A DNA stretch of 64,000 nucleotides from Alphaproteobacteria bacterium (lineage in GTDB: Bacteria > Pseudomonadota > Alphaproteobacteria > Rs-D84), in assembly GCA_046882065.1 (NCBI GenBank), contig JBKSMY010000006.1:5800-69799 (forward strand). Direction: 5' to 3'. Below the pieces are notes generated by a model that saw nothing but the letters and a program-made list of their open reading frames with translations, was not told the DNA's origin and did not search any database. Shown here one piece after another: positions 7,250-51,329 of this stretch. The stretch's first letter is position 1. Every line of letters begins with the position of its first letter. Position numbers and translations under genes: made by a program.

Positions 7250-8359
7250 ATGCCAAAAATTTCAGTTATTGTTCCATGTTATAATGTTGCACCGTATATT
7301 GGGGCCTGTCTGGATTCGTTAATCAATCAAACCCTGGACGATATTGAAATTATCTGCGTTGACGATAAATCAACCGATAATACACTTGCGATTATCAAGG
7401 AACGCATACCGCAGGATTCGCGCATCAAAATAATTGAATTACCGAAAAATTCGGGCGTATCGGTTGCGCGTAATACAGGCATAGACGCAGCCACGGGTGA
7501 ATATGTTGGCTTTGTTGACCCCGACGACTATGTAGATTTAGATTTTTATAAAAAATTGTATGAAGCGGCAACACTTGAAAATGCCGATATTGCCAAGGCG
7601 AACTTAACCGTAATTAATGTGGATGGGGTTCATACTGTGGGACGACTGAACCGCTTTGTTAAACAAGATAAATTGAATTTTCAGTATGAGTTTACATCCG
7701 CAATTTATAAAAAAGAATTCTTGGACGAACACAATCTGCGATTTTTGCCAGGGGTGTCAATTGGCGAAGATGTGAATTGGCAGATTAAAGCGGCATATCT
7801 GGCAAATAAAATACCTGTGATTGATGAAGTTTCTTATTTTTATGTTAGACGAACCGATTCCGCGTATTGCCAGTTTCTGACCCGCGCAAAAATAGAAAAG
7901 GTGTGCAGTGCATCACAAGATTTGCTGACCTGGACAAACAATCAGACAGATATAACATTTTCAGATTATATGAATATCATGCGTTCGGTTTATGCGTTGA
8001 TGTTGAATAATATTCCTAAATCAATGACATACCAGGACAAAGAGTATATAGCACGCTGCGTTATCAACGCATATCGTGATACAAGATATCAACAAGATGC
8101 ATTAAAAAGAAATTTTAAAAAGCACTCGCGCAGACCTGTTGCGCATGGGCAGGTTGATGAAATTATAAAAACTTTGGCATATCAGAAAAGAAGATACAAA
8201 CTGTTTGGCAAATTACCAATTATCAAGGTATTACACGCACCAAATCAGGAATACAAATTGATTCTGTTTGATTTAATAACAATATTCAAGTGCGTGCGCG
8301 GACAGTATAACGACCGATTTTATATTTGCGGAATAGAAGTTATGAAAGTTGCCCACTAA
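7250..8359 (+). CDS. family-2 glycosyltransferase
   Basis: N-terminus MPKISVIVPCYNVAPYIGACLDSLINQTLDDIEIICVDDKSTD with downstream DPDD is a classic GT2 (GT-A) signature. Confidence 0.75.
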   Translation: MPKISVIVPCYNVAPYIGACLDSLINQTLDDIEIICVDDKSTDNTLAIIKERIPQDSRIKIIELPKNSGVSVARNTGIDAATGEYVGFVDPDDYVDLDFYKKLYEAATLENADIAKANLTVINVDGVHTVGRLNRFVKQDKLNFQYEFTSAIYKKEFLDEHNLRFLPGVSIGEDVNWQIKAAYLANKIPVIDEVSYFYVRRTDSAYCQFLTRAKIEKVCSASQDLLTWTNNQTDITFSDYMNIMRSVYALMLNNIPKSMTYQDKEYIARCVINAYRDTRYQQDALKRNFKKHSRRPVAHGQVDEIIKTLAYQKRRYKLFGKLPIIKVLHAPNQEYKLILFDLITIFKCVRGQYNDRFYICGIEVMKVAH

Positions 8360-24736: not shown

Positions 24737-25393
24737 TTATGAATATAATTTTTTAAAACCGTTTTCTATTTTTCGAATGTATTCTAGATCACCATCACGC
24801 CAATATTTTGGATCGCGCATCATGCGACGCAAATCAGAATCTGACAAAATTTCATTTTCATTTTTATCTGTTTTAACGTCAGGCTCCATCGATTGCATCA
24901 TCTTGTAAACGCTTTGGATTCCCTGGGGTGTAGCGCACAACGATTCAAATGCGTCCTGCGGCAAAAAGCGTTCGCCAAATGTATTTATCGCACGCAACGC
25001 ATCTAACATTTTTTCATCGCCACCAAAGAAATTTTTCAATTCATTCATCGCAGATACATCATCACGCGTTGCAAATAATTCTGAAATTACTGGTGATAAA
25101 AAATTGTTCGCAATATCATAAATTTTTTCAACTTGTGTTTTAGTCAAACCAATTTCAAGAAATTTTTGTCGCAGATTTTCATCATCATATAATTCATGAA
25201 CAGGATATTCAGATGCATCATCCGGAACACCAATTGCGCGATTAAATTTCTGACGCGCAGCGCTATCTGAATTTTCATTTGGAACAGACACCATCGTGCC
25301 AATCTTTTTTTCTAATTCATTATACGAACGCATCAACGCGTCTGTATTCAATGTTCCGTCATTATTACGAAATTTTTCTGGGATGTTATCCAT
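24737..25393 (-). CDS. acidic helical protein, scaffolding-protein candidate
   Basis: ~218 aa from internal Met MDNIPEKF (RBS aaggaa), rich in D/E and predicted helices, and located upstream of the capsid gene as in T7 gp9. The long upstream extension is judged non-coding. Confidence 0.3.
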   Translation of the reverse strand: MDNIPEKFRNNDGTLNTDALMRSYNELEKKIGTMVSVPNENSDSAARQKFNRAIGVPDDASEYPVHELYDDENLRQKFLEIGLTKTQVEKIYDIANNFLSPVISELFATRDDVSAMNELKNFFGGDEKMLDALRAINTFGERFLPQDAFESLCATPQGIQSVYKMMQSMEPDVKTDKNENEILSDSDLRRMMRDPKYWRDGDLEYIRKIENGFKKLYS

Positions 25394-25583
25394 TGTCTTT
25401 TCCTTTGGTTTCGTTTGAACGGCGCAGAAAATATATTCCCGCCAATGTAAATATTGCCTGCAACATTGTAAATAAATCTGTATCACCCACCAGGTATGCA
25501 CCAACAGCCGACAAGATACCCGTCGCAGAAATTATGTATGTTCGGTACCCAGACAGGTAGCCACCATGTATTATTCGTTTCAT
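25386..25583 (-). CDS. holin-like small membrane protein
   Basis: 65 aa with two hydrophobic segments and a charged C-terminus, immediately downstream of the lysin gene. Confidence 0.35.
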   Translation of the reverse strand: MKRIIHGGYLSGYRTYIISATGILSAVGAYLVGDTDLFTMLQAIFTLAGIYFLRRSNETKGKDNG

Positions 25584-29655: not shown

Positions 29656-29794
29656 ATCATCCCCCTTTGGCAGATTTAAATCCAGTCTATAATATCGCAA
29701 AAAAATGTTTTTTGCAATAAATTCTGGGAATATAAATTCGTATTTTGTAATAGGCAACTGTGATAATATTATAAAAAACAACAGGAAATATCAC

Positions 29795-30292
29795 ATGGCA
29801 AAAAAATTTAAGACAAATACCAACGCATTCAGTATCGCACACTATATCTTGTTATTTTTGGTCGCAGGATTTAGTATAGCAATAATCGCATGGGTAATGA
29901 TAAAAAATAATAATCATAATCCTGCAAATAACGTATCAGCCAATGTAATTCACATCAAAGATACCGACCCGTGTGTTCAACGAACCCGCGACATGGTGGC
30001 ACGCATGTGGGCATATGACCCAGGAACCGTACCGGAAAAATACTGGAAAATCGCAGAAAACTATCTGTACCAGGTCATCACAACACGCACATATGGCATA
30101 TGCCAAGACGTCGCGTTTACATGCCATGTGGGACAAATTCGCATTGACTGTGATCCATGCGCAGTACCAAGCGCGCGTGATTGGGCACAAAGTATTCATG
30201 TTGCGGATTTAATACGAAAAAACTGTGGCGTGGACGTTAACGAACACGCGATGGAATCAGTCGACGCAACGCATCACCCAATAATTGAATAG
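29795..30292 (+). CDS. membrane-anchored hypothetical protein (start MAKKFKT)
   Basis: RBS acaggaaat. One TM segment (ILLFLVAGFSIAIIAWVMI) followed by a Cys-containing soluble domain. Confidence 0.4.
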   Translation: MAKKFKTNTNAFSIAHYILLFLVAGFSIAIIAWVMIKNNNHNPANNVSANVIHIKDTDPCVQRTRDMVARMWAYDPGTVPEKYWKIAENYLYQVITTRTYGICQDVAFTCHVGQIRIDCDPCAVPSARDWAQSIHVADLIRKNCGVDVNEHAMESVDATHHPIIE

Positions 30293-31004
30293 CATATGGC
30301 GTGTCAGTACGAGTTAAAATTTTTGCCAGTTTGTCCTGGTGTTCCGGGCATAAGACCAGACAACCCGTATCGATATTATACTTATTTGCGCACCAGTTTT
30401 TGAATACCAACTGTTTCTGGTACATGGTGGCGTATTCAGATTGACTTTTGTTCAGCGCGTTGTGGTGCGTGATAAATTCATTGATATCACGGGGATGAAA
30501 CTGAAAACCAACACCCAATAAAAAGTTTAATATCAACCCCCAATCGCGATACATGTGAAAACGCGTTGCGTAATCAAAGCGGGATTGTGGATTCAATGCC
30601 CAAATATACTGGGCATAGTAATAAGACACACGGGCAGCATCGTCAAAAATACGTCTGACCGCGCCGCGATGTCCAAACAGAACACCTAAACTGGGGTCGG
30701 TTGCCAGATTATAATAATATTCCAGTTTATATGCGTCATTGACGATTTTATCGTACGTCAGACCGTCTATGCGATAATCATGGGCAAATTTATAAGTCGT
30801 TTTATAGCCTGCATCACGCAGTTGTTTGTCCAAACTTAGCGCGCTGGATTTTGTATCGGCATATAATTTGATTTGCTTTTTTGCATATTCATCGGGGCTT
30901 GATTTCACACAGGCAACATGTTTGCGCAAATCGGCAGATGTCACCGCGCCTACAGAATCACGCAAATCATTGACCGTAAACATATCACCATTTTGAATCA
31001 TTAT
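30237..31004 (-). CDS. hypothetical protein (~255 aa)
   Basis: ORF track; start placed at internal Met MIQNGDM. Confidence 0.35.
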   Translation of the reverse strand: MMIQNGDMFTVNDLRDSVGAVTSADLRKHVACVKSSPDEYAKKQIKLYADTKSSALSLDKQLRDAGYKTTYKFAHDYRIDGLTYDKIVNDAYKLEYYYNLATDPSLGVLFGHRGAVRRIFDDAARVSYYYAQYIWALNPQSRFDYATRFHMYRDWGLILNFLLGVGFQFHPRDINEFITHHNALNKSQSEYATMYQKQLVFKNWCANKYNIDTGCLVLCPEHQDKLAKILTRTDTPYAIQLLGDALRRLIPSRVR

Positions 31005-31078
31005 ACACCCCCAAGATTGGGAGTATTTTACATACTTATTTTCGTACGTCAATAAAAACCCGCCGGTGGCGGGTGCTT

Positions 31079-32191
31079 TTATCGATTTGTTAACTGTAAT
31101 TCAATACGACGGTTTTTCTGAAGTGCCGCCGGGTCGTTACCCAATTCAACAGGATGCATATCACCAAAGCCACTGGGGACCAGGCGACGTGGCGAAACGC
31201 CCGCATTTGCCAATTCATTCGCAACCGCTGTTGCGCGCAACAAAGACAGTTCCGTGTTGTTTTTATACCCCGCCGTACCAGATATAACCTGTTTCTTGTC
31301 AGTATGACCGTCAACACGAATAATCCAGTTAACGTCAGTTGGGATTTTTTCTTCCATGTCTTTAATCACGTTCGCAATCAAATGCAGTTGACGTTTACCG
31401 TCCGCGGACAATTTGTATGCGCCACTTGGGAATAAAATATCGCTGTTGACAATAAAGCGGTCGCCATCTGACTGAATTGTTGTGCGATCACCCATGGCCA
31501 GTTTAACCGCCTTGTAAAACTCAGACTGATACTGGGACATGTCTTTTAATTCAGCAACCTTGTCCGCCAGGGCACGATTCAAGCGCGTTGACATTTCAAC
31601 ATACCGAATTTCCTGGGCGCGGGATTTTTCTTCGGCTGCATCCAGCGCGGCCTGTAATTTCGCCAACTGGTCCGACAGATTAGCACGCTGGGCCTCCATC
31701 TCGTCCTGTAATAACTTGCGTTCCTGTTCCAGGGCAGCCGTTTTTTCCTTGTCCAGGTTTGCCTGATTCAACTGTGTATTTAATTCAGCCACCATTTTTT
31801 GCAGGTCGTTGCCCTGGGCCTGTAATTCAAGAACCTTGGCTTCGTATGCGGTGATAAGTTCCGCGACGCTTAAATCAACCTCGGCCAATTCGTTGTTCAG
31901 GTCTGCATTAGACTGTTCCAATGATTCCAATTGGTTGCGCGCCAATATCAACAAGCGTTTTGCTTCTTCTTCGTCCATGGTCATTTGCGCAATCATTTCA
32001 GCCTGCTCTGCATTCGTTGCCTTTAATTCTGCAACGGTTTTCGCCCCAGTTGTTTTATTAAACACACTGGTTGTAGTCCACAAAAACACAAAAACTATCA
32101 TCAAAAATATCAAAATGATTACCAGATTCGAAAACAAGTCTACGAATCCTGGCCATGCATTTGTTGATGTACGATAACGAATGTTCATCAT
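31079..32191 (-). CDS. MotB/OmpA-family protein with N-terminal TM, ~200-aa coiled coil and C-terminal peptidoglycan-binding OmpA-like domain
   Basis: TM is LVIILIFLMIVFVFLW, followed by a long heptad-rich region. The C-terminus has the OmpA_C-like motif TDKKQVISGTAGYKNNTELSLLRATAVANELANAGV..RIELQL. Confidence 0.55.
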   Translation of the reverse strand: MMNIRYRTSTNAWPGFVDLFSNLVIILIFLMIVFVFLWTTTSVFNKTTGAKTVAELKATNAEQAEMIAQMTMDEEEAKRLLILARNQLESLEQSNADLNNELAEVDLSVAELITAYEAKVLELQAQGNDLQKMVAELNTQLNQANLDKEKTAALEQERKLLQDEMEAQRANLSDQLAKLQAALDAAEEKSRAQEIRYVEMSTRLNRALADKVAELKDMSQYQSEFYKAVKLAMGDRTTIQSDGDRFIVNSDILFPSGAYKLSADGKRQLHLIANVIKDMEEKIPTDVNWIIRVDGHTDKKQVISGTAGYKNNTELSLLRATAVANELANAGVSPRRLVPSGFGDMHPVELGNDPAALQKNRRIELQLTNR

Positions 32192-32218
32192 GATACTACT
32201 CTCTCTCTTGCTTTTGTT

Positions 32219-32992
32219 TTATATTTCTGAAACAGCCTGTTCCAGTGATTGGACACTTTTAGTTAATTCGCGGGTTGCCAGATTTATCTGGGGCAATATT
32301 TGCGATACTGTGTCCGTCGCGGCAACGCGTGTGTGTGATGCCAAGTAATCTTCTAGTTCGTGATAAATCATATTTTGGGCGGTTTGAACCTGAAGCCCCA
32401 GGAAACCGACAGTCAAACTGCCCCCCAGACCCAGTAACGAACTGGTGAACGCGGTCGCCATACCCGCCAGCGGACGGGACAGCCCAGCCTGCATAGACTG
32501 CAGAACAGTTTCATCAGAAAAGTTCAGATTTCCAATCAATTCTGCAAAACCACCAACCGTCAAAATCAATCCCCAAAACGTTCCCAACAAACCCAAAAAG
32601 ATTAACGTGTTTGTGATGTAACGAACCGATTCACGCGAATCTTCGAATCGCAACAATATCATTTCCATAAAACCATTCAACGTTGTCGCAGAAATCTGTT
32701 TCGGACGCGATGATAACATTTGCGCCACAGGTCGCAATAAATTTGGTGGCAACTTTAACCCACGATGACCAGTTGTATAGCCACGCAACCATTTGTATTC
32801 AGGCAACAGTCCAAACATCAAAATAAAACACAAACCAATTCCAAATAGTGTGGTGCCAATAATAATGCCGTTCAGCCAAATGTTCGCAGCCGAAATCGCC
32901 ATAAAATCCGCCCAAAAATACAACACACCCGCAACCAGCAATGCGGTAAATAATGCCATGCGATTAAGTGCGCCATGAAAATGTTTTGTCAT
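32219..32992 (-). CDS. MotA/TolQ/ExbB-family proton-channel protein
   Basis: 257 aa with 3-4 TM segments and the conserved GLLGTFWGL-type segment of MotA_ExbB proteins. Confidence 0.55.
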   Translation of the reverse strand: MTKHFHGALNRMALFTALLVAGVLYFWADFMAISAANIWLNGIIIGTTLFGIGLCFILMFGLLPEYKWLRGYTTGHRGLKLPPNLLRPVAQMLSSRPKQISATTLNGFMEMILLRFEDSRESVRYITNTLIFLGLLGTFWGLILTVGGFAELIGNLNFSDETVLQSMQAGLSRPLAGMATAFTSSLLGLGGSLTVGFLGLQVQTAQNMIYHELEDYLASHTRVAATDTVSQILPQINLATRELTKSVQSLEQAVSEI

Positions 32993-33060
32993 ATGAACGT
33001 TCCCCCGCTTAATCGTAGGTTAGTAAATTTAACTGAACATTGTCAATAGACTTTATTGCG

Positions 33061-34302
33061 TTATTTACACACTGCCACATAGGGTGGCGCGGAACGCGAC
33101 ATGTCAATTTCGCCCACCCCACAATCCAGACAATTAAAACGACGATTCTGCGCGTGCGATTTGTCCAACGGAACCGCAACATTCACCATCGTTTCGACCG
33201 TTTCTATGTACGCAGGGGACGGAAAACCAAAGTAAAACGCACGACTTGGGCCGCTGCATTCGTCAGCCTGCCCTGGATAACAAAGTGGATCTGTCAAACG
33301 CGCAGGATCCGGAACACACGAAGAAACGCACGTTTCAGCATCAACCACCATACGTTCACAATCTGTACAGGACGTTTGCGGAACACGCAATGTCGCCCCC
33401 AGCGCACCATACACCGCACCAGATGTTATATGTGTACACTTTTTACTGTTTGTGGTTGCGGACGGGTCCATGACACATTCCCATTCCAACGTATTATAAT
33501 TCAAACGCGCAATCATTTTGTCTGGGCAGTTTTTATCCGGGAATGGATCAACACATTCCCAAACGCTGTCCACCATAACCGCCGTTTGAGCATCCGCACA
33601 CAGCGGCTTACGCGTTTCGTCGGGTACACACTCGTACAAATCAGAATCCCATATCATATCACCACCACAATCGGTTTTGGTGTTATATTCAACACATTGC
33701 CAACGACCAAAACGATATGCCTGGGCGGTGCCAACAGGACAAACAATGTCAGGTGTAGGCGCAATATCATATACAACACCCGCATCTGGGATTTCATACT
33801 GGGTCAAATACACCAATTGACCGTCCACCAATTCCATATTCTTTACAATTTCCGCAGGGATTTGACGGCGCATCGACGTTCCACCAGACACTATCATGCC
33901 ATCGTTTAACACACCAAACGTTCCTGCGTCTGAATAATATTTTTCCAGAATTTCCATCATAGCATTATGATCGGTCGTATCAATCGGATGAGTTGCCGTG
34001 ACAATATAACTGAATGCAGGCTTTTTATTTTTTACAATTTCGCATTTTGTGCTTTTTAACTTATTATCCAGACAGATAAATTCGCTGATGATTCCGTTTT
34101 GCTCGATACAAATATCGTTAAAATCCGTGCCGTTAATCTGGGCATTATGTAACGCAGTTGCACACTGGGCCACCGTACGCAGGTCAGAGCGAGAAACCGC
34201 ATATTCTGTTTCATGTTTGGCAACCTTTTGACTGGGTGAATCCATCATATAGTACCCCGCCATAAACAACGCCACCAAAATCATGATAAAAATATTCATC
34301 AT
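33061..34302 (-). CDS. Cys-rich (>30 Cys) membrane-anchored/secreted protein, unknown function
   Basis: N-terminal TM/signal anchor MMNIFIMILVALFMAGYYMM. Dense Cys spacing throughout (CxxC, C-x-C pairs). First gene of a co-directional trio with the MotA/MotB-like genes. Confidence 0.45.
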   Translation of the reverse strand: MMNIFIMILVALFMAGYYMMDSPSQKVAKHETEYAVSRSDLRTVAQCATALHNAQINGTDFNDICIEQNGIISEFICLDNKLKSTKCEIVKNKKPAFSYIVTATHPIDTTDHNAMMEILEKYYSDAGTFGVLNDGMIVSGGTSMRRQIPAEIVKNMELVDGQLVYLTQYEIPDAGVVYDIAPTPDIVCPVGTAQAYRFGRWQCVEYNTKTDCGGDMIWDSDLYECVPDETRKPLCADAQTAVMVDSVWECVDPFPDKNCPDKMIARLNYNTLEWECVMDPSATTNSKKCTHITSGAVYGALGATLRVPQTSCTDCERMVVDAETCVSSCVPDPARLTDPLCYPGQADECSGPSRAFYFGFPSPAYIETVETMVNVAVPLDKSHAQNRRFNCLDCGVGEIDMSRSAPPYVAVCK

Positions 34303-37844: not shown

Positions 37845-38918
37845 TTATGCGCCCTGCTTTTTCGATGCGGCAGGGGTAAAGAATCCTGGAATCGAAAAGT
37901 CTTCGTCGTTGGCGGCGATACCGGCCCAGCCGAACAAATCGCCCACCAGACCACTGTCATCGCGTTTAGCCTTTTTAAATGGCAAGATGTTTTTCAATTT
38001 ACCAATTTTTCCCGCACCGGTTGCGCGTGGTGCAGCCGGAATTTTGTCCTGGGCGTCAGCAAATTCGGTTGCCAACTGGGCCAATGTTGCATCCGTGTCA
38101 TCGCCTTCAAAAATATCAGCGGGAACTTCTGCAACTGGGGCTGTCTGGACATCTTCGCGCAGGGGCGCCATGGTTTCCAATAATTCTTCCAGCGTTTTTT
38201 CCATCTGGGGTACCGGCGCATCGTCTGTAATCATATCGCCAATTGTTACGGTTTCAACCGCATCGTCCGCCGCGACCACAGGCGCAGATAATTCTGAATC
38301 AACATTGATATCAGAAATAATTGCGGTTTCGACAACATCGGCCACGGGTTCTGTGATAACTTCAACGACAGATTCCATAACCGGTTCTGCAACAACTTCT
38401 GCGACAGGTTCAACGACAACTTCTGCGACAGGTTCAACAACCGGTTCAATCACCGTTTCAACGACGGGTTCAACCGGCGTTTCCTGGGCAGATAAAATTG
38501 ATAAAATTGGAATAACTGGTTCAGACGCAGGGGATTCTGGCGTTTCTGGCGTTTCTGGTGTTTCTGGTGTTTCTGGCGCGACATCAACAATTGGTTCTGG
38601 GACAATTTCTGCGACGGGCGCATACTGTGTTTCAGCAACAGGTTCAATAACAGACCCAACGACAGGTTCAATCACGGGTTCAATCACAGGTTCAACGATG
38701 GGTTCTATTTCTGGTTTGTTTGCCGTTGCAACAACAGGTTCCGCAACTGGTGCGACATCATAAACGCCTGATAACGCATTGTCTGCATCCACCGGAACAC
38801 CAAATAATATCGTATCCTTGTCCAGACCAAGTGCAGCACGCACAGAATCAAAAGCCGCACGAATTTCAGACATTTCAAACACTTCATTACCGGAAATATA
38901 GATTATTTTGGTCTTCAT
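37845..38918 (-). CDS. acidic Val/Pro/Glu repeat protein (EPV/ETP repeats) with small folded N- and C-terminal segments
   Basis: Repeats PVIEPVIEPVVGSVIEPVAE, ETPETPETPETPE, VEPVVETVIEPVVEPVAEVVVEPVAEVVAEPV. RBS gggggat before MKTKIIYISG. The antisense 313-aa S/T/G-rich ORF is judged a shadow. Confidence 0.45.
   Translation of the reverse strand: MKTKIIYISGNEVFEMSEIRAAFDSVRAALGLDKDTILFGVPVDADNALSGVYDVAPVAEPVVATANKPEIEPIVEPVIEPVIEPVVGSVIEPVAETQYAPVAEIVPEPIVDVAPETPETPETPETPESPASEPVIPILSILSAQETPVEPVVETVIEPVVEPVAEVVVEPVAEVVAEPVMESVVEVITEPVADVVETAIISDINVDSELSAPVVAADDAVETVTIGDMITDDAPVPQMEKTLEELLETMAPLREDVQTAPVAEVPADIFEGDDTDATLAQLATEFADAQDKIPAAPRATGAGKIGKLKNILPFKKAKRDDSGLVGDLFGWAGIAANDEDFSIPGFFTPAASKKQGA
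38531..38578. repeat. 9-bp tandem DNA repeat (ggcgtttct/ggtgtttct x5) encoding ETP repeats
   Basis: Seen directly in sequence. Confidence 0.8.
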
Positions 38919-39000
38919 AAATTCATCCCCCACAATATATGGTCGTATTATATCACATTTTAGGGTTGAACGCATATAAAAAATGTCTTAAACTGAAAAT

Positions 39001-49002: not shown

Positions 49003-49097
49003 TTTATTTCCTTTGGTCTTAAGTCAGCCGACGACCCCATGCCGTCAGCAGGAACGTGCCTTATTATGGCAATTTATAAACAAAAATCAAGTGTTTT

Positions 49098-51329
49098 TTA
49101 TTTGCCAAACTTGCCACTGCGCGGGAAACCGACCGGAACGGTGCGACCCTGGGATGCACGCTTGCCACGCCATGGCGTCCAATCTTCCAATTTCGTGGTG
49201 CCACGACCCGTTGTCCAGCCAAATCCGTTCGCCGCGTCAAAGAACATAACATCCAGAACATATGTGCGTTCGGCATTGTATTTTTGTAAAATCACACCCT
49301 TGCCGCGGGACATTTGTGGTATTTCATCGGTTGCAAATATCAACAGTTTATCATTCGAGCCAGACATAGCCACACTGTCACCCGATACATGTACGCACAT
49401 GTGCGCAGGATTTTTTGGCTCAACATTCATAACCTGTTTGCCGTTTCGGGTTTGTGCAACACAGGCGTCGCCCGATACGATAAACCCATTACCATGACGC
49501 GAGACCAACAAGTACTTGGCATTAACATCCAGCACAAATGCGTGTACGATATCTTCGTCGGCGGCGATATCTGCCATCATGCGAACAGATTCACCGAAAC
49601 CGCGCGCAGACGGCAATTCATTCGCGGACAATGTAAACATTTTGCCAGACGAACCAAATATATTGATTTTATCAATTGACTGGGCATGGAATGCGGTTTG
49701 CAGTTCGTCACCTTCTTTGAATTTCAAATCCAACGCATTCAAATCCAGATGTCCCTTGGCCGCACGAATCCAGCCCATTGTGGACAAGATGATTGTAAGA
49801 GGTTCTTTTTCTATAAATTCGTCCGCGTTGACAACAATTTCTTCGGTTTGTTCCGCCCATGTTGTACGGCGACGCCCCAGTTTCGTTTTTTTGTCATAGG
49901 TCTTTTTAATGTCGTTGAACCACGCCTTTAACTGTTCGTTTTGCGCATCATCACTGGCCAATAATGCCTGCAACTGTTCCTGTTCTGCGCGCAAGGCAGC
50001 ATCTTCGCGCTTAATCTCCATTTCCTCTAATTTACGCAAAGAACGCAGACGGGTGTTTAATATCGCCTCGACCTGGATATCGGTCAGGTTAAATTCTGCG
50101 ATTAACACAGCCTTGGCATCGTCTTCGTTGCGAATAATTTCGATAACGCGATCCAGGTTCAGATACACAACCAGCAAACCGCCCAAAATTTCCAAACGAC
50201 GCGCAATATTATTCAAACGCCATTTTGTGCGACGCTGTAAAACTAATTTCTGGTGCGCGATAAATTCACGCAGTACATCACCAATCGGCATAACACGCGG
50301 TGCACCATGTGAATCAATCACGTTAAAGTTCATATTGAAACGATATTCCAAATCCGTTAACGCAAACAGGTGCGCCATCATTTTATCCGCCGGAATATTA
50401 CGCGTTTTCGGCGTTATAACAATACGGACATCCGTCGTAGATTCATCAACGATATCGTCAACCAATGGCAATTTCTTGGAATCAATTAAGGTCGCAATCT
50501 GTTCCACCAATTTCGTTTTCACAATACCGTACGGGATTTCGGAAATCACAACCTGCCAGCCACCGCGTTCCAGGTTTTCAATTTCCCAACGTGCGCGAAC
50601 ACGGAATGCGCCGCGACCAGTATCATAATTCTTTACAATGGTTTCAAAACTGTCAATCAATACGCCACCGGTCGGGAAATCTGGCCCAACCATTTTTTTC
50701 ATAATCTGGGCGGTCGTCGCGTCTGGTTTATCAACGACCAGATTTAAGGCATCGCAAACCTCAGCCACGTTGTGGGTCGGGATGTTTGTTGCCATACCAA
50801 CCGCAATACCCATACCGCCGTTTGCCAACAAATTCGGGAACGCGCCCGGCATTACAACAGGTTCCATTGTCGTGCCGTCAAAGTTTGGCATCATATCAAC
50901 ACTGTCTTCGTCCAGACCCTCCATAATCAACATGGCGGCTTCGGTCATTTTAGATTCTGTGTATCGATACGCCGCCTGGGGGTCACCGTCGATATTACCA
51001 AAGTTACCCTGGCCATCAATCAATGGATAGCGTACGGAAAAGTCCTGGGCCAGGCGAACCATCGCATCATACACGGACGAATCCCCGTGTGGGTGATAAT
51101 GACCCAACACGTCACCAACAACCGTCGCGCATTTGCGAAACGCGGCGTTGGGCGCTAATTTCTGGCGCAACATGGAATATAAAATACGGCGATGTACAGG
51201 CTTTAACCCGTCGCGAACGTCCGGCAAGGCACGCGATACAATCGTGCTGACCGCGTATGACAGATAGCGTTCAGACAACGCGTCTGACAACTGTTGTGAA
51301 TCAATGTTTTCAATAATTTCTTTTCCCAT
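49098..51329 (-). CDS. parC: DNA topoisomerase IV subunit A (type IIA topoisomerase A subunit; 743 aa favours ParC over GyrA)
   Basis: [54 protein letters not shown], and the active-site Tyr region AAYRYTE. Confidence 0.7.

What the first reader, a model, noticed from the sequence alone, without database searches (positions are those of the whole stretch)
31079..34302. Co-oriented trio: Cys-rich membrane-anchored protein, MotA/TolQ-like channel and MotB/OmpA-like protein with long coiled coil
Three co-directional minus-strand genes encode a ~413-aa protein with >30 Cys and an N-terminal anchor, a MotA/TolQ/ExbB-family protein, and a MotB-like protein. In the MotB-like protein the TM segment and the OmpA-like peptidoglycan-binding domain are separated by ~200 aa of coiled coil. 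No flagellar, Tol-Pal or TonB partners are nearby. Stator-like pairs with long coiled coils drive non-flagellar machines such as gliding, Zorya-like defence and envelope energisers. The Cys-rich partner is not a known component of any of these systems.
Basis: partly seen in the sequence, partly recalled or inferred. Interest (0 to 1): 0.6.

Follow-up and report, generated by a model that had tools for sequence, protein, structure and literature searches.

The report
Relocated stator-like gene pair, unrelated neighbour
The three genes are real, but only two belong together: a MotA/MotB-like, cell-wall-anchored ion-motor pair that is widespread in Alphaproteobacteria and still has no known function, while the cysteine-rich gene became its neighbour only through a recent gene move in one small lineage.

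Summary
The three minus-strand ORFs exist at the stated coordinates. The window comes from a gut 'Candidatus Enterousia'-type alphaproteobacterium. The MotB-like protein is as described: a TM helix with an invariant Asp18, a coiled coil of about 175 aa, and an OmpA domain. The MotA-like protein is a divergent A subunit of the 5:2 ion-motor superfamily. The Cys-rich protein has 22 invariant Cys, not more than 30.

The trio is not a unit. MotB-like follows MotA-like in 80/80 species-level loci and 49/50 assessable metagenome loci. The Cys-rich gene lies upstream in only 7 of the 80 loci (72 have enough upstream sequence to judge), and these 7 plus the window form one exclusive clade. Elsewhere the Cys-rich gene stays beside lptE-holA without the pair. 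In 40-45 of the 80 loci the pair sits beside rpsF-rplI.

The pair carries its own conserved promoter-like element (79/79 upstream regions) and a terminator-like hairpin. The emptied ancestral site is visible in this window at about 49.1 kb. S. meliloti has the same pair (PRK09039 'peptidoglycan-binding protein' plus a MotA/TolQ/ExbB-family protein) and no Cys-rich gene.

Verdict: this is a divergent member of a catalogued but functionally uncharacterised, non-flagellar, non-Zorya, non-Tol/Ton stator-like pair, next to an unrelated clade-specific disulfide-rich protein. Interest is modest.

The parts
32219..32992 (-). MotA-like A subunit (257 aa). It has four hydrophobic helices. The conserved pair around residues 126-153 and 175-200 carries GLLGTFWGL and TAFTSSLLGL. 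The cytoplasmic loop (residues 67-125) and the C-tail are short.
   Evidence: Pfam MotA_ExbB scores 15.7 bits, below threshold. PADLOC ZorA1 gives E 2e-13 for a partial match. The AF2 model has pLDDT 79.7. Foldseek top hits are ZorA, TolQ and ExbB at probability 1.0. It is 42% identical to the S. meliloti MotA/TolQ/ExbB family protein.
31079..32191 (-). MotB-like B subunit (370 aa), a divergent PRK09039-type 'peptidoglycan-binding protein'.
   Evidence: NCBIfam NF006543 scores 252 bits in a full-length alignment, below the 305 cut-off. It is 31% identical over its full length to S. meliloti PRK09039.1-3 (E 3e-58). It follows the A gene in 80/80 and 49/50 loci.
32078..32149 (-). B-subunit TM helix with the invariant WPGFVDLFSNL motif. 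Asp18 (codon 32138-32140) is the presumed ion-binding residue.
   Evidence: The motif is invariant in 86 Enterousia sequences. WPG[FYW]VD is conserved in diverse metagenome loci.
31517..32044 (-). B-subunit coiled coil, about residues 50-225. It would be about 26 nm long if it is one continuous helix.
   Evidence: It has 0 Pro and 1 Gly, and a 3.55-residue hydrophobic periodicity reached by 1 of 500 shuffles. Length variants in the clade differ by whole heptads (370, 363, 356, 377 aa). It is the least conserved region, at 67% mean identity.
31109..31435 (-). B-subunit OmpA-like peptidoglycan-binding domain (residues 253-361).
   Evidence: Pfam OmpA E 7e-15. The best solved-structure matches are MotB, MotS and PomB C-terminal domains.
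33020..33046 (-). Promoter-like element of the pair: TTGACA (33046-33041), a 15-nt spacer, then TACTAA (33025-20). It is followed by a G-rich ribosome-binding site (about 33006-33001). It lies in the 68-nt gap after the Cys-rich gene's stop codon.
   Evidence: The same element precedes the MotA-like gene in 74/79 upstream regions by regex. The other 5 carry a TTTATTA variant. It is present in every genomic context examined.
31058..31074 (-). Terminator-like hairpin (7 pairs, 6 of them G-C) plus a T-run, 4 nt after the MotB-like stop codon.
33061..34302 (-). Gene for a membrane-anchored, disulfide-rich protein (413 aa, 22 invariant Cys, four C-x13-17-C hairpin modules ending in [WY][EQ]C). It is an unrelated neighbour, not part of the motor unit.
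   Evidence: No Pfam, NCBIfam or PADLOC hit. The family has only 75 representative clusters among 1.84 billion proteins. It is always divergent from lptE-holA. The AF2 model has pLDDT 64.7 and no significant PDB match.
49003..49105 (.). Emptied ancestral site of the pair: the intergenic region next to rpsF (49002-48667, minus strand). It aligns with the rpsF-MotA intergenic region of other genomes up to about 49100. It then breaks just before the position where the promoter would lie.
   Evidence: tblastn finds rpsF and rplI in the window. Alignment A4 shows the breakpoint. The next gene is parC/gyrA-like. rpsF and rplI are the commonest neighbours of the pair, in 40 and 45 of 80 loci.

Best explanation
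The region holds two independent units.

Unit 1 (31058-33046) is a self-contained two-gene operon with its own promoter-like element and terminator-like hairpin. It encodes a non-flagellar MotA/MotB-type ion-driven motor of the 5:2 superfamily. [quoted passage not shown]

Shown:
- the fold of the A subunit;
- an invariant Asp in the B-subunit TM helix;
- a heptad-register coiled coil;
- an OmpA-type C-terminal domain;
- obligate A-B gene pairing.

Inferred from established knowledge of MotAB, ExbBD, TolQR and ZorAB:
- five A subunits surround the two B-subunit TM helices;
- ion passage through Asp18 drives rotation of the A ring relative to the B dimer;
- the B dimer forms a parallel coiled-coil stalk of about 26 nm that fixes it to peptidoglycan.

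The output partner is unknown. My best guess is a housekeeping role in the cell envelope, cell pole or cell division, rather than motility or defence.

Unit 2 (33061-34302) encodes an unrelated, clade-restricted, N-terminally anchored protein. It is presumably periplasmic and disulfide-rich. Its conserved neighbours are lptE-holA.

The two units became adjacent through one relocation of the whole operon from its ancestral position beside rpsF, about 16 kb away in this window. This happened in the common ancestor of a small Enterousia subclade.
For: - Pairing: MotB-like follows MotA-like in 80/80 loci and in 49/50 assessable loci.
- Cys-rich adjacency: 7/80 loci, with 72 assessable. These loci plus the window form an exclusive 8-leaf clade.
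- The Cys-rich gene occurs without the pair in L001-L003.
- The pair occurs without the Cys-rich gene beside rpsF-rplI or other genes.
- In one MAG both genes are present but far apart: locus tags E7011_04205 and E7011_02385.
- A promoter-like element is conserved in 79/79 upstream regions, and a terminator-like hairpin follows MotB-like.
- The emptied site and its breakpoint are visible in the window.
- An outgroup locus at 56% identity (L096) also has rplI upstream.
- S. meliloti has a homologous pair: 42% and 31% identity, with the B subunit scoring 692 bits against PRK09039.
- The family is very large, saturating the search at 8000 clusters.
- Asp18 is invariant.
- Coiled-coil statistics and whole-heptad length steps support the stalk.
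- The A-subunit model matches only 5:2-motor A subunits.
Against: - No experiment or complex model supports the 5:2 stoichiometry, ion flow or rotation for this family. I could not run a multimer prediction.
- The output partner and physiological role are guesses. The only phenotypes come from K. hansenii 'motAB' (elongated cells, polar localisation; PMC6570709), and I could not verify by sequence that those genes are orthologues.
- No terminator was detected between the Cys-rich gene and the MotA-like gene. Read-through co-transcription in the trio clade is therefore possible.
- The window's proteins fall below the curated cut-offs: PRK09039.1-2 at 252 versus 305 bits, and PF01618 at 15.7 versus 22.9 bits.
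- The promoter and terminator are consensus-pattern matches, not mapped transcript ends.
Confidence: 0.8

Rival explanations
1. The three genes form one functional system. The Cys-rich anchored protein would be a periplasmic partner or load of the stator-like motor.
For: - The genes share a strand with short gaps of 68 and 27 nt.
- No terminator-like site lies between the Cys-rich gene and the MotA-like gene.
- The arrangement is kept in all 8 members of the clade.
- In 17 of 43 environmental loci a different gene, encoding a secreted OmpA-domain protein, sits in the same upstream, same-strand position. That slot can therefore hold accessory genes.
Against: - Adjacency is confined to one small clade: 7/80 loci, 0/80 metagenome loci, and not S. 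meliloti.
- Both genes are retained but unlinked in most Enterousia genomes.
- The Cys-rich family is far narrower (75 representative clusters) than the pair's family, which saturated the search at 8000 clusters.
- The pair keeps its own promoter-like element inside the gap.
- The emptied site shows a simple relocation.
Confidence: 0.07
2. The pair is a Zorya-like anti-phage defence module, a ZorAB relative.
For: - The best HMM matches are ZorA and ZorB models: PADLOC ZorA1 E 2e-13 and ZorB3 E 6e-18, and NCBIfam ZorA_4 at 27 bits.
- The Foldseek top hit is ZorA, 8vvn.
- In L004 and L005 a McrBC system lies directly downstream.
Against: - Scores are far below the cut-offs: 27 versus 500 bits, and 18.5 versus 100 bits.
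- The A subunit is 257 aa and has no long ZorA tail.
- None of the neighbouring genes scanned matched a ZorC-G-type effector.
- The pair is present in all 226 relatives found across species genomes of the clade. It is syntenic beside a ribosomal-protein operon and is conserved as far as Rhizobiaceae in housekeeping contexts.
Confidence: 0.03
3. The pair is a flagellar stator (MotAB/PomAB type), as many database names for homologues state.
For: - Sources name homologues 'flagellar motor protein MotA'.
- The B subunit has the MotB-type Asp and an OmpA domain.
- There are weak NCBIfam hits to MotD, MotB and MotS over the C-terminal half.
- The best solved-structure sequence matches are MotB and PomB C-terminal domains.
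Against: - No NCBIfam MotA equivalog hit was found for the A subunit.
- The A-subunit model has only one short helix (87-94) between the two long TM-containing helices. Flagellar stators have a 4-5-helix torque-generating interface (classification in PMC12505986).
- Flagellar MotA and PomA are the weakest Foldseek matches.
- No flagellar genes were found in the ORFs scanned from 24.7 to 52.5 kb.
- From my own knowledge, S. meliloti has separate flagellar motA/motB/motC genes.
- The non-flagellated K. hansenii carries a similar pair (PMC6570709; orthology not verified by sequence).
Confidence: 0.04
4. The pair is a Tol/Ton-type energiser. In this reading the B subunit combines TolR-like, TolA-like and Pal-like roles in one chain and couples proton-motive force to outer-membrane or division-site homeostasis.
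For: - TolQ and ExbB structures match the A-subunit model at probability 1.0 and TM-scores of 0.4-0.6.
- The cytoplasmic domain is small, as in TolQ and ExbB.
- The B subunit has a TM Asp, a long helical spacer and a Pal-like OmpA domain.
- K. hansenii overexpression gives elongated cells, as reported for tolQR overexpression (PMC6570709).
Against: - No NCBIfam TolQ, TolR, ExbB or ExbD hits were found at E <= 0.1.
- The B subunit's periplasmic domain is of the MotB/OmpA type, not the TolR/ExbD type.
- No tolA, tolB, pal or tonB genes are linked in any of the contexts examined.
- I did not test whether the same genomes also carry a canonical Tol-Pal system.
Confidence: 0.1

Closest known systems
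[quoted passage not shown]
   Same: Gene order is the same: A, then B with a gap of only a few nucleotides. The B-subunit architecture is the same: the WPGFVD TM motif, a coiled coil, then an OmpA domain. The proteins align over the full length at 31% (B) and 42% (A) identity.
   Different: - The window's proteins score below the curated cut-offs (252 versus 305 bits).
- The A subunit is about 110 aa shorter (257 versus 368 aa) and lacks the C-terminal extension.
- The coiled coil is about 28 aa longer.
- The genomic neighbourhood differs.
ZorAB, the motor of the Zorya anti-phage system (structures 8vvn and 8qyd)
   Same: It is the closest HMM and structural match for the TM core of the A subunit. 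Its B subunit also has a TM Asp and a peptidoglycan-binding OmpA-like domain.
   Different: Here the long coiled coil is on the periplasmic B subunit, not on the cytoplasmic tail of the A subunit. No effector genes (ZorC-G) are present. The pair is a conserved housekeeping pair, not a mobile defence island.
Flagellar stator MotAB/PomAB
   Same: The B subunit has an N-terminal TM helix with a conserved Asp and a C-terminal OmpA-like domain.
   Different: The A subunit has a condensed cytoplasmic domain rather than a torque-generating interface. The B subunit has a coiled coil of about 175 aa in place of a short plug and linker. There is no flagellar gene context.
TolQR-TolA-Pal and ExbBD-TonB
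   Same: The A-subunit fold and small cytoplasmic domain are similar. Conceptually, these systems also combine an ion-driven inner-membrane motor, a long periplasm-spanning helical element and a peptidoglycan-binding OmpA-like domain.
   Different: In Tol-Pal those elements are on three separate proteins. Here the TM Asp, the spacer and the OmpA domain are on one chain. No TolR/ExbD-type domain is present, and no tolA, tolB, pal or tonB gene is linked.
K. hansenii 'MotA/MotB' (348 and 321 aa; PMC6570709)
   Same: It is a non-flagellated alphaproteobacterium with adjacent genes annotated MotA/TolQ/ExbB-family and OmpA/MotB. The protein sizes match the PRK09039-type pair.
   Different: I could not verify orthology by sequence. 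The reported phenotypes (cell elongation, colony spreading, polar GFP signal) come from overexpression.

Membership tests
PRK09039-type peptidoglycan-binding protein (NCBIfam NF006543-6) | Whole-protein score at or above the curated cut-off | tested here: not met
   The best score is NF006543 at 252.4 bits against a cut-off of 305. The alignment is nevertheless full length: residues 7-370 against profile positions 11-350 of 350.
PRK09039-type peptidoglycan-binding protein (NCBIfam NF006543-6) | Full-length homology to a bona fide member, with the same TM, coiled-coil and OmpA architecture | tested here: met
   The S. meliloti protein scores 692 bits, above its 362 cut-off. It aligns with the window protein over residues 5-370 at E 3e-58.
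PRK09039-type peptidoglycan-binding protein (NCBIfam NF006543-6) | Encoded directly downstream of a MotA/TolQ/ExbB-family gene | tested here: met
   This holds in 80/80 loci, in 49/50 loci, and in S. meliloti.
MotA/ExbB/TolQ superfamily (Pfam PF01618; 5:2 motor A subunit) | Pfam score at or above the gathering threshold | tested here: not met
   The score is 15.7 bits against 22.9. Some Rhizobiaceae homologues do carry a precomputed PF01618 hit.
MotA/ExbB/TolQ superfamily (Pfam PF01618; 5:2 motor A subunit) | A-subunit fold with the conserved last two TM helices | tested here: met
   The AF2 model has pLDDT 79.7. The listed Foldseek matches are all A subunits of 5:2 motors: ZorA, TolQ and ExbB at probability 1.0, with MotA and PomA weaker. 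The GLLGTFWGL segment is invariant.
MotA/ExbB/TolQ superfamily (Pfam PF01618; 5:2 motor A subunit) | A5B2 assembly and ion-driven rotation | not testable with these tools
   No multimer prediction or experiment was available.
Flagellar stator MotAB/PomAB | Large torque-generating cytoplasmic interface (4-5 helices) between TM2 and TM3 of the A subunit | tested here: not met
   The model shows only one short helix (87-94) between the long helices 38-73 and 102-155. The criterion comes from PMC12505986.
Flagellar stator MotAB/PomAB | B subunit with a TM Asp and an OmpA-like peptidoglycan-binding domain | tested here: met
   Asp18 is invariant. Pfam OmpA gives E 7e-15.
Flagellar stator MotAB/PomAB | Flagellar gene context or dependence on a flagellum | tested here: not met
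   No flagellar genes were found in the window ORFs scanned from 24.7 to 52.5 kb. None appeared among the called neighbours shown for L004-L006 and L091, and none was among the recurrent neighbour clusters that were identified. The rest of the genome was not examined.
Zorya (ZorAB plus effectors) | ZorA with a long C-terminal coiled-coil tail | tested here: not met
   The A subunit is 257 aa with about 50 aa after the last TM helix. The PADLOC matches cover only the TM core of ZorA profiles that are 420-1063 positions long.
Zorya (ZorAB plus effectors) | Linked ZorC/ZorD, ZorE or ZorF/ZorG genes | tested here: not met
   PADLOC gave no such hits for the four window proteins scanned. The neighbours are ribosomal, housekeeping or variable genes.
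Tol-Pal / TonB energisers | B subunit of the TolR/ExbD type, with linked tolA/tolB/pal or tonB | tested here: not met
   The B subunit carries an OmpA/MotB-type domain. There are no TolQ/TolR/ExbB/ExbD NCBIfam hits. No such genes are linked.
Proposed three-gene 'Cys-rich + MotA + MotB' system | Co-conservation of the Cys-rich gene with the pair | tested here: not met
   Adjacency occurs in 7/80 loci, confined with the window to one clade. It occurs in 0/80 metagenome loci. The Cys-rich gene stands alone in L001-L003.

The most novel reading that the evidence does not exclude
The PRK09039-type pair could be the core of an uncharacterised class of peptidoglycan-anchored 5:2 motors that accept lineage-specific periplasmic partners encoded immediately upstream. 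That slot holds a secreted OmpA-domain protein in 17 of 43 environmental loci. In the window's Enterousia subclade it holds the disulfide-rich anchored protein, which would then be a newly recruited load or regulator of the motor.
Probability: 0.08. Interest if true: 0.6.

Novelty: new member of a known kind. Interest (0 to 1): 0.3.

Why it matters
The trio as proposed does not hold, so nothing here points to a new three-component machine.

What remains is a clean example of a very widespread alphaproteobacterial gene pair. It saturated an 8000-cluster search and is often misannotated as 'flagellar motor protein MotA'. It has every sequence hallmark of an ion-driven, wall-anchored 5:2 motor, yet I found no established function for it.

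Three features make it a reasonable target for whoever wants to find out what a sixth kind of stator-like motor does:
- the long coiled coil is on the periplasmic B subunit, the reverse of Zorya;
- coiled-coil length changes in whole heptads;
- the pair occurs in non-flagellar, housekeeping contexts.

That is a question about the whole family, not something specific to this window. The practical value of this check is a corrected annotation: the pair is neither flagellar nor Zorya, and it is not linked to the Cys-rich gene. It also documents a relocation event with the emptied site still visible.

Tried and rejected
- Family scans of the Cys-rich protein (Pfam, NCBIfam, PADLOC) found nothing.
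- Its AF2 model is mediocre (pLDDT 64.7, pTM 0.37). Foldseek against the PDB gave no significant match. The best was the minor pilin TcpB at E 0.05, plus EGF-like hits, and I treat these as noise.
- Pfam on the long-form relatives (P0248 to P0313) gave nothing informative.
- A profile search of the MotA-like alignment against PDB sequences gave only a marginal ZorA-type hit at E 0.5.
- Literature searches found no direct characterisation of the PRK09039 pair. The K. hansenii papers probably concern orthologues, but I could not confirm that by sequence.
- Two paper searches failed on syntax.
- My first locus script read only part of the locus files and was rerun.
- A stricter promoter regex used the wrong spacing and returned nothing. 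It should be ignored.
- I considered whether the 271-aa ORF downstream (30237-31052) is a fourth member. I rejected this because it is present only in L011 and L012, and it lies beyond the terminator-like hairpin.
- I considered whether the trio arrangement is ancestral. I rejected this because the trio taxa are one small clade, and an outgroup locus at 56% identity has the rplI context.

Full report
**1. Observation**

The three ORFs are real and sit at the stated coordinates on the minus strand:
- 33061-34302, 413 aa
- 32219-32992, 257 aa
- 31079-32191, 370 aa

The gaps between them are 68 and 27 nt.

The first protein has a single N-terminal hydrophobic segment and 22 cysteines, not the more than 30 claimed. 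All 22 are invariant in an alignment of 26 homologues that go down to 60% identity. It has no Pfam, NCBIfam or PADLOC match.

The third protein has an OmpA domain at residues 253-361 (E 7e-15). Its N-terminal TM helix carries the motif WPGFVDLFSNL, in which Asp18 is invariant across 86 sequences.

The stretch at residues 50-225 behaves as a coiled coil:
- It has no Pro and one Gly.
- Hydrophobic periodicity peaks at 3.55 residues, and 1 of 500 shuffles reaches that value.
- Length variants in the clade are 370 aa (67 sequences), 363 (9), 356 (4) and 377 (2). These are whole-heptad steps.

The second protein scores below Pfam's MotA_ExbB threshold (15.7 versus 22.9 bits). It matches the TM core of ZorA models (PADLOC E 2e-13). 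Its AF2 model (pLDDT 79.7) matches only A subunits of 5:2 motors. ZorA, TolQ and ExbB have probability 1.0, and flagellar MotA and PomA are weaker.

No flagellar, Tol-Pal or Ton genes were found among the ORFs scanned between 24.7 and 52.5 kb.

**2. Organism and family sizes**

Homologues come from uncultured gut and rumen Alphaproteobacteria, many named 'Candidatus Enterousia'.

The Cys-rich family is narrow. It has 75 representative clusters at 50% identity among 1.84 billion proteins.

The MotA-like family is very large. [quoted passage not shown]

**3. Is the trio a unit? No.**

- In 80 species-representative loci centred on the MotA-like gene, the MotB-like gene follows directly in 80/80. 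A Cys-rich homologue lies upstream in only 7. Of the 80 loci, 72 have enough upstream sequence to judge.
- In a neighbour-joining tree of concatenated A and B proteins, the 7 trio loci plus the window form an exclusive 8-leaf clade.
- In L001-L003 (61-70% identity), the Cys-rich gene keeps its divergent lptE-holA-map-radC neighbours. It is followed there by unrelated genes, namely an AMP-binding enzyme gene and nrdD.
- The commonest neighbours of the pair are the divergent rpsF and rplI genes, in 40 and 45 of 80 loci. An outgroup locus at 56% identity (L096) also has rplI upstream.
- One MAG carries both genes about 360 locus tags apart: E7011_04205 and E7011_02385.

**4. The pair is an autonomous transcription unit that was moved**

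A promoter-like element precedes the MotA-like gene in every context. It consists of TTGACA, then TACTAA/T about 15 nt later, then a G-rich ribosome-binding site. A regex finds it in 74 of 79 upstream regions, and the other 5 carry a TTTATTA variant. In the window it lies at 33046-33020, inside the 68-nt gap after the Cys-rich gene's stop codon.

A hairpin rich in G-C pairs, followed by a T-run, comes right after the MotB-like stop codon at 31074-31058.

The ancestral site is in this same window. rpsF lies at 49002-48667 and rplI at 48404-47808. The rpsF-proximal intergenic region aligns with the rpsF-MotA intergenic region of L036 and L038-L040 up to about 49100. Homology then stops about 10-15 nt before the position where the TTGACA box lies in those loci. 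The window sequence continues into the 3' end of a parC/gyrA-like gene.

The simplest reading is one relocation of the whole module, promoter to terminator. This is inference, and the mechanism of the move is unknown.

**5. What the pair is**

A mislabelled S. meliloti chromosome record shows the same pair in a housekeeping neighbourhood of inositol monophosphatase, an ABC transporter and rpmE. [quoted passage not shown]

The window's proteins align with these at 42% identity (E 1e-37) and 31% identity over the full length (E 3e-58). The S. meliloti B subunit is a bona fide PRK09039.1-3 member at 692 bits. The window's B subunit aligns full-length with PRK09039.1-2 but scores below the cut-off, at 252 versus 305 bits.

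A metagenome scan with a combined profile gave 80 diverse loci at 35-72% identity:
- A B-type gene with WPG[FYW]VD and an OmpA C-terminus follows in 49 of 50 assessable loci.
- B-subunit length ranges from 331 to 554 aa.
- No locus has a Cys-rich homologue.

Recurrent neighbours in these loci are the same housekeeping genes as in S. meliloti. In 17 of 43 loci, a secreted protein with a Pro-rich linker and an OmpA domain is encoded directly upstream on the same strand.

**6. Mechanism**

Shown:
- an A-subunit fold of the 5:2 motor superfamily with a condensed cytoplasmic domain;
- a B subunit with the conserved TM Asp, a heptad-register coiled coil and an OmpA-type domain;
- obligate A-B gene coupling.

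Inferred from the solved MotAB, ExbBD, TolQR and ZorAB complexes (my own knowledge, plus PMC9389320 and PMC12505986 as listed):
- The complex is an A5B2 assembly.
- Ion flow through Asp18 turns the A ring relative to the B dimer.
- The B dimer is held on peptidoglycan by a stalk of up to about 26 nm.

Within Enterousia the coiled coil is the least conserved region (67% mean identity). Its length is nevertheless held at 370 aa or changes by multiples of 7. This fits a spacer or ruler role.

The output is unknown. The only phenotypic data I found are for 'motA/motB' of the non-flagellated K. hansenii: elongated cells and more colony spreading on overexpression, polar GFP signal, and denser cellulose in disruptants (PMC6570709 and PMC7347698). 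Those proteins (348 and 321 aa) are probably orthologues, but I could not check their sequences. I therefore favour a housekeeping envelope, pole or division role, with low confidence in the specifics.

**7. Comparison with known systems**

- Not a flagellar stator. It lacks the torque-generating interface, has no flagellar context, and gives the weakest structural matches to flagellar stators.
- Not Zorya. It has no ZorA tail and no effector genes, and it is a conserved, syntenic housekeeping pair.
- Not TolQR or ExbBD. The B-subunit domain is of the wrong type and no partner genes are linked.
- It is a divergent member of the PRK09039-type pair, a catalogued family whose function has not been established. 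Hence my rating of 'new member of a known kind'.

**8. The Cys-rich protein**

Its N-terminal anchor and 22 invariant cysteines suggest a disulfide-bonded periplasmic protein (inference). It contains four tandem C-x13-17-C modules ending in [WY][EQ]C at residues 188-276. One relative has about ten repeats of the module (P0305).

The model's N-terminal alpha/beta domain is moderately confident, and the rest is poor. No fold or family assignment was obtained. It is an uncharacterised, clade-specific protein. I found no evidence tying it to the motor beyond adjacency in one clade.

**9. Verdict**

Interest is 0.3. The family-level question is worthwhile, but it is not specific to this locus, and the feature that made the finding look unusual is explained by a gene relocation.

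Noticed in passing
L130:171-1115 and 16 other metagenome loci (e.g. L105, L113, L121, L143, L148, L171): In 17 of 43 assessable environmental loci, a gene of about 314 aa sits directly upstream of the MotA-like gene on the same strand. It encodes a signal peptide, a Pro/Ala-rich linker and an OmpA domain (Pfam 32.3 bits, above the 27.2 threshold). It may be a lineage-specific third component of the PRK09039-type motor. It is absent in Enterousia and S. meliloti.
   Followed up: partly
window 31517-32044 (B-subunit coiled coil); loci L011-L090: B-subunit lengths within the clade are 370 (67 sequences), 363 (9), 356 (4) and 377 (2) aa. Indels therefore come in whole heptads, while the sequence of this region is the least conserved part of the protein. 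Across Alphaproteobacteria, B-subunit length ranges from 331 to 554 aa.
   Followed up: partly
window 49003-49105: This is the emptied ancestral site of the MotA/MotB-like operon beside rpsF. Homology to the rpsF-MotA intergenic region of other genomes ends about 10-15 nt before the position where the operon's promoter lies in those genomes.
   Followed up: yes
L004:8001-11040 and L005:2567-5606: An EVE-McrB/McrC restriction system is inserted directly downstream of the MotA/MotB-like pair in some Enterousia genomes. In 35 other loci a small BOF (OB-fold) protein gene occupies that position. The downstream flank appears to be a variable spot.
   Followed up: no
window 24737-25504 (minus strand): A 255-aa ORF matches Pfam Phage_T7_Capsid, the T7 capsid assembly (scaffold) protein (E 7.7e-08, 33.4 bits against a 27.1 cut-off). 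This may be a prophage or phage-derived remnant about 6 kb from the locus.
   Followed up: no
window 37845-38975 (minus strand): A 376-aa ORF contains long acidic (E/P/V)-rich repeats such as EPVVEPVIEPV and PETPETPETPE. It has no Pfam match. ORFs of similar size occupy the same position next to radC in related genomes (L001-L003, L008-L010), but I did not compare their sequences.
   Followed up: no
P0277 (1823 aa), P0292 (2463 aa), P0305 (619 aa, about 10 repeats): The Cys-rich family has long forms that share the N-terminal region or multiply the C-x13-17-C hairpin module. None has an informative Pfam domain.
   Followed up: partly
L091 (CP090106.1) and hits H1, H3: Three records of 3.5-4.6 Mb in the plasmid collection look like chromosomes rather than plasmids. 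One is labelled 'S. meliloti pSymB' but carries housekeeping genes such as rpmE and purE. This mislabelling is what allowed the annotated comparison.
   Followed up: no
window 29705-30292 (plus strand) and 30237-31052 (minus strand): Two overlapping ORFs without family hits lie downstream of the pair. The 195-aa ORF has homologues in the trio loci and beside corA in L022. The 271-aa ORF has homologues only in L011 and L012. Their real starts and coding status are uncertain.
   Followed up: partly
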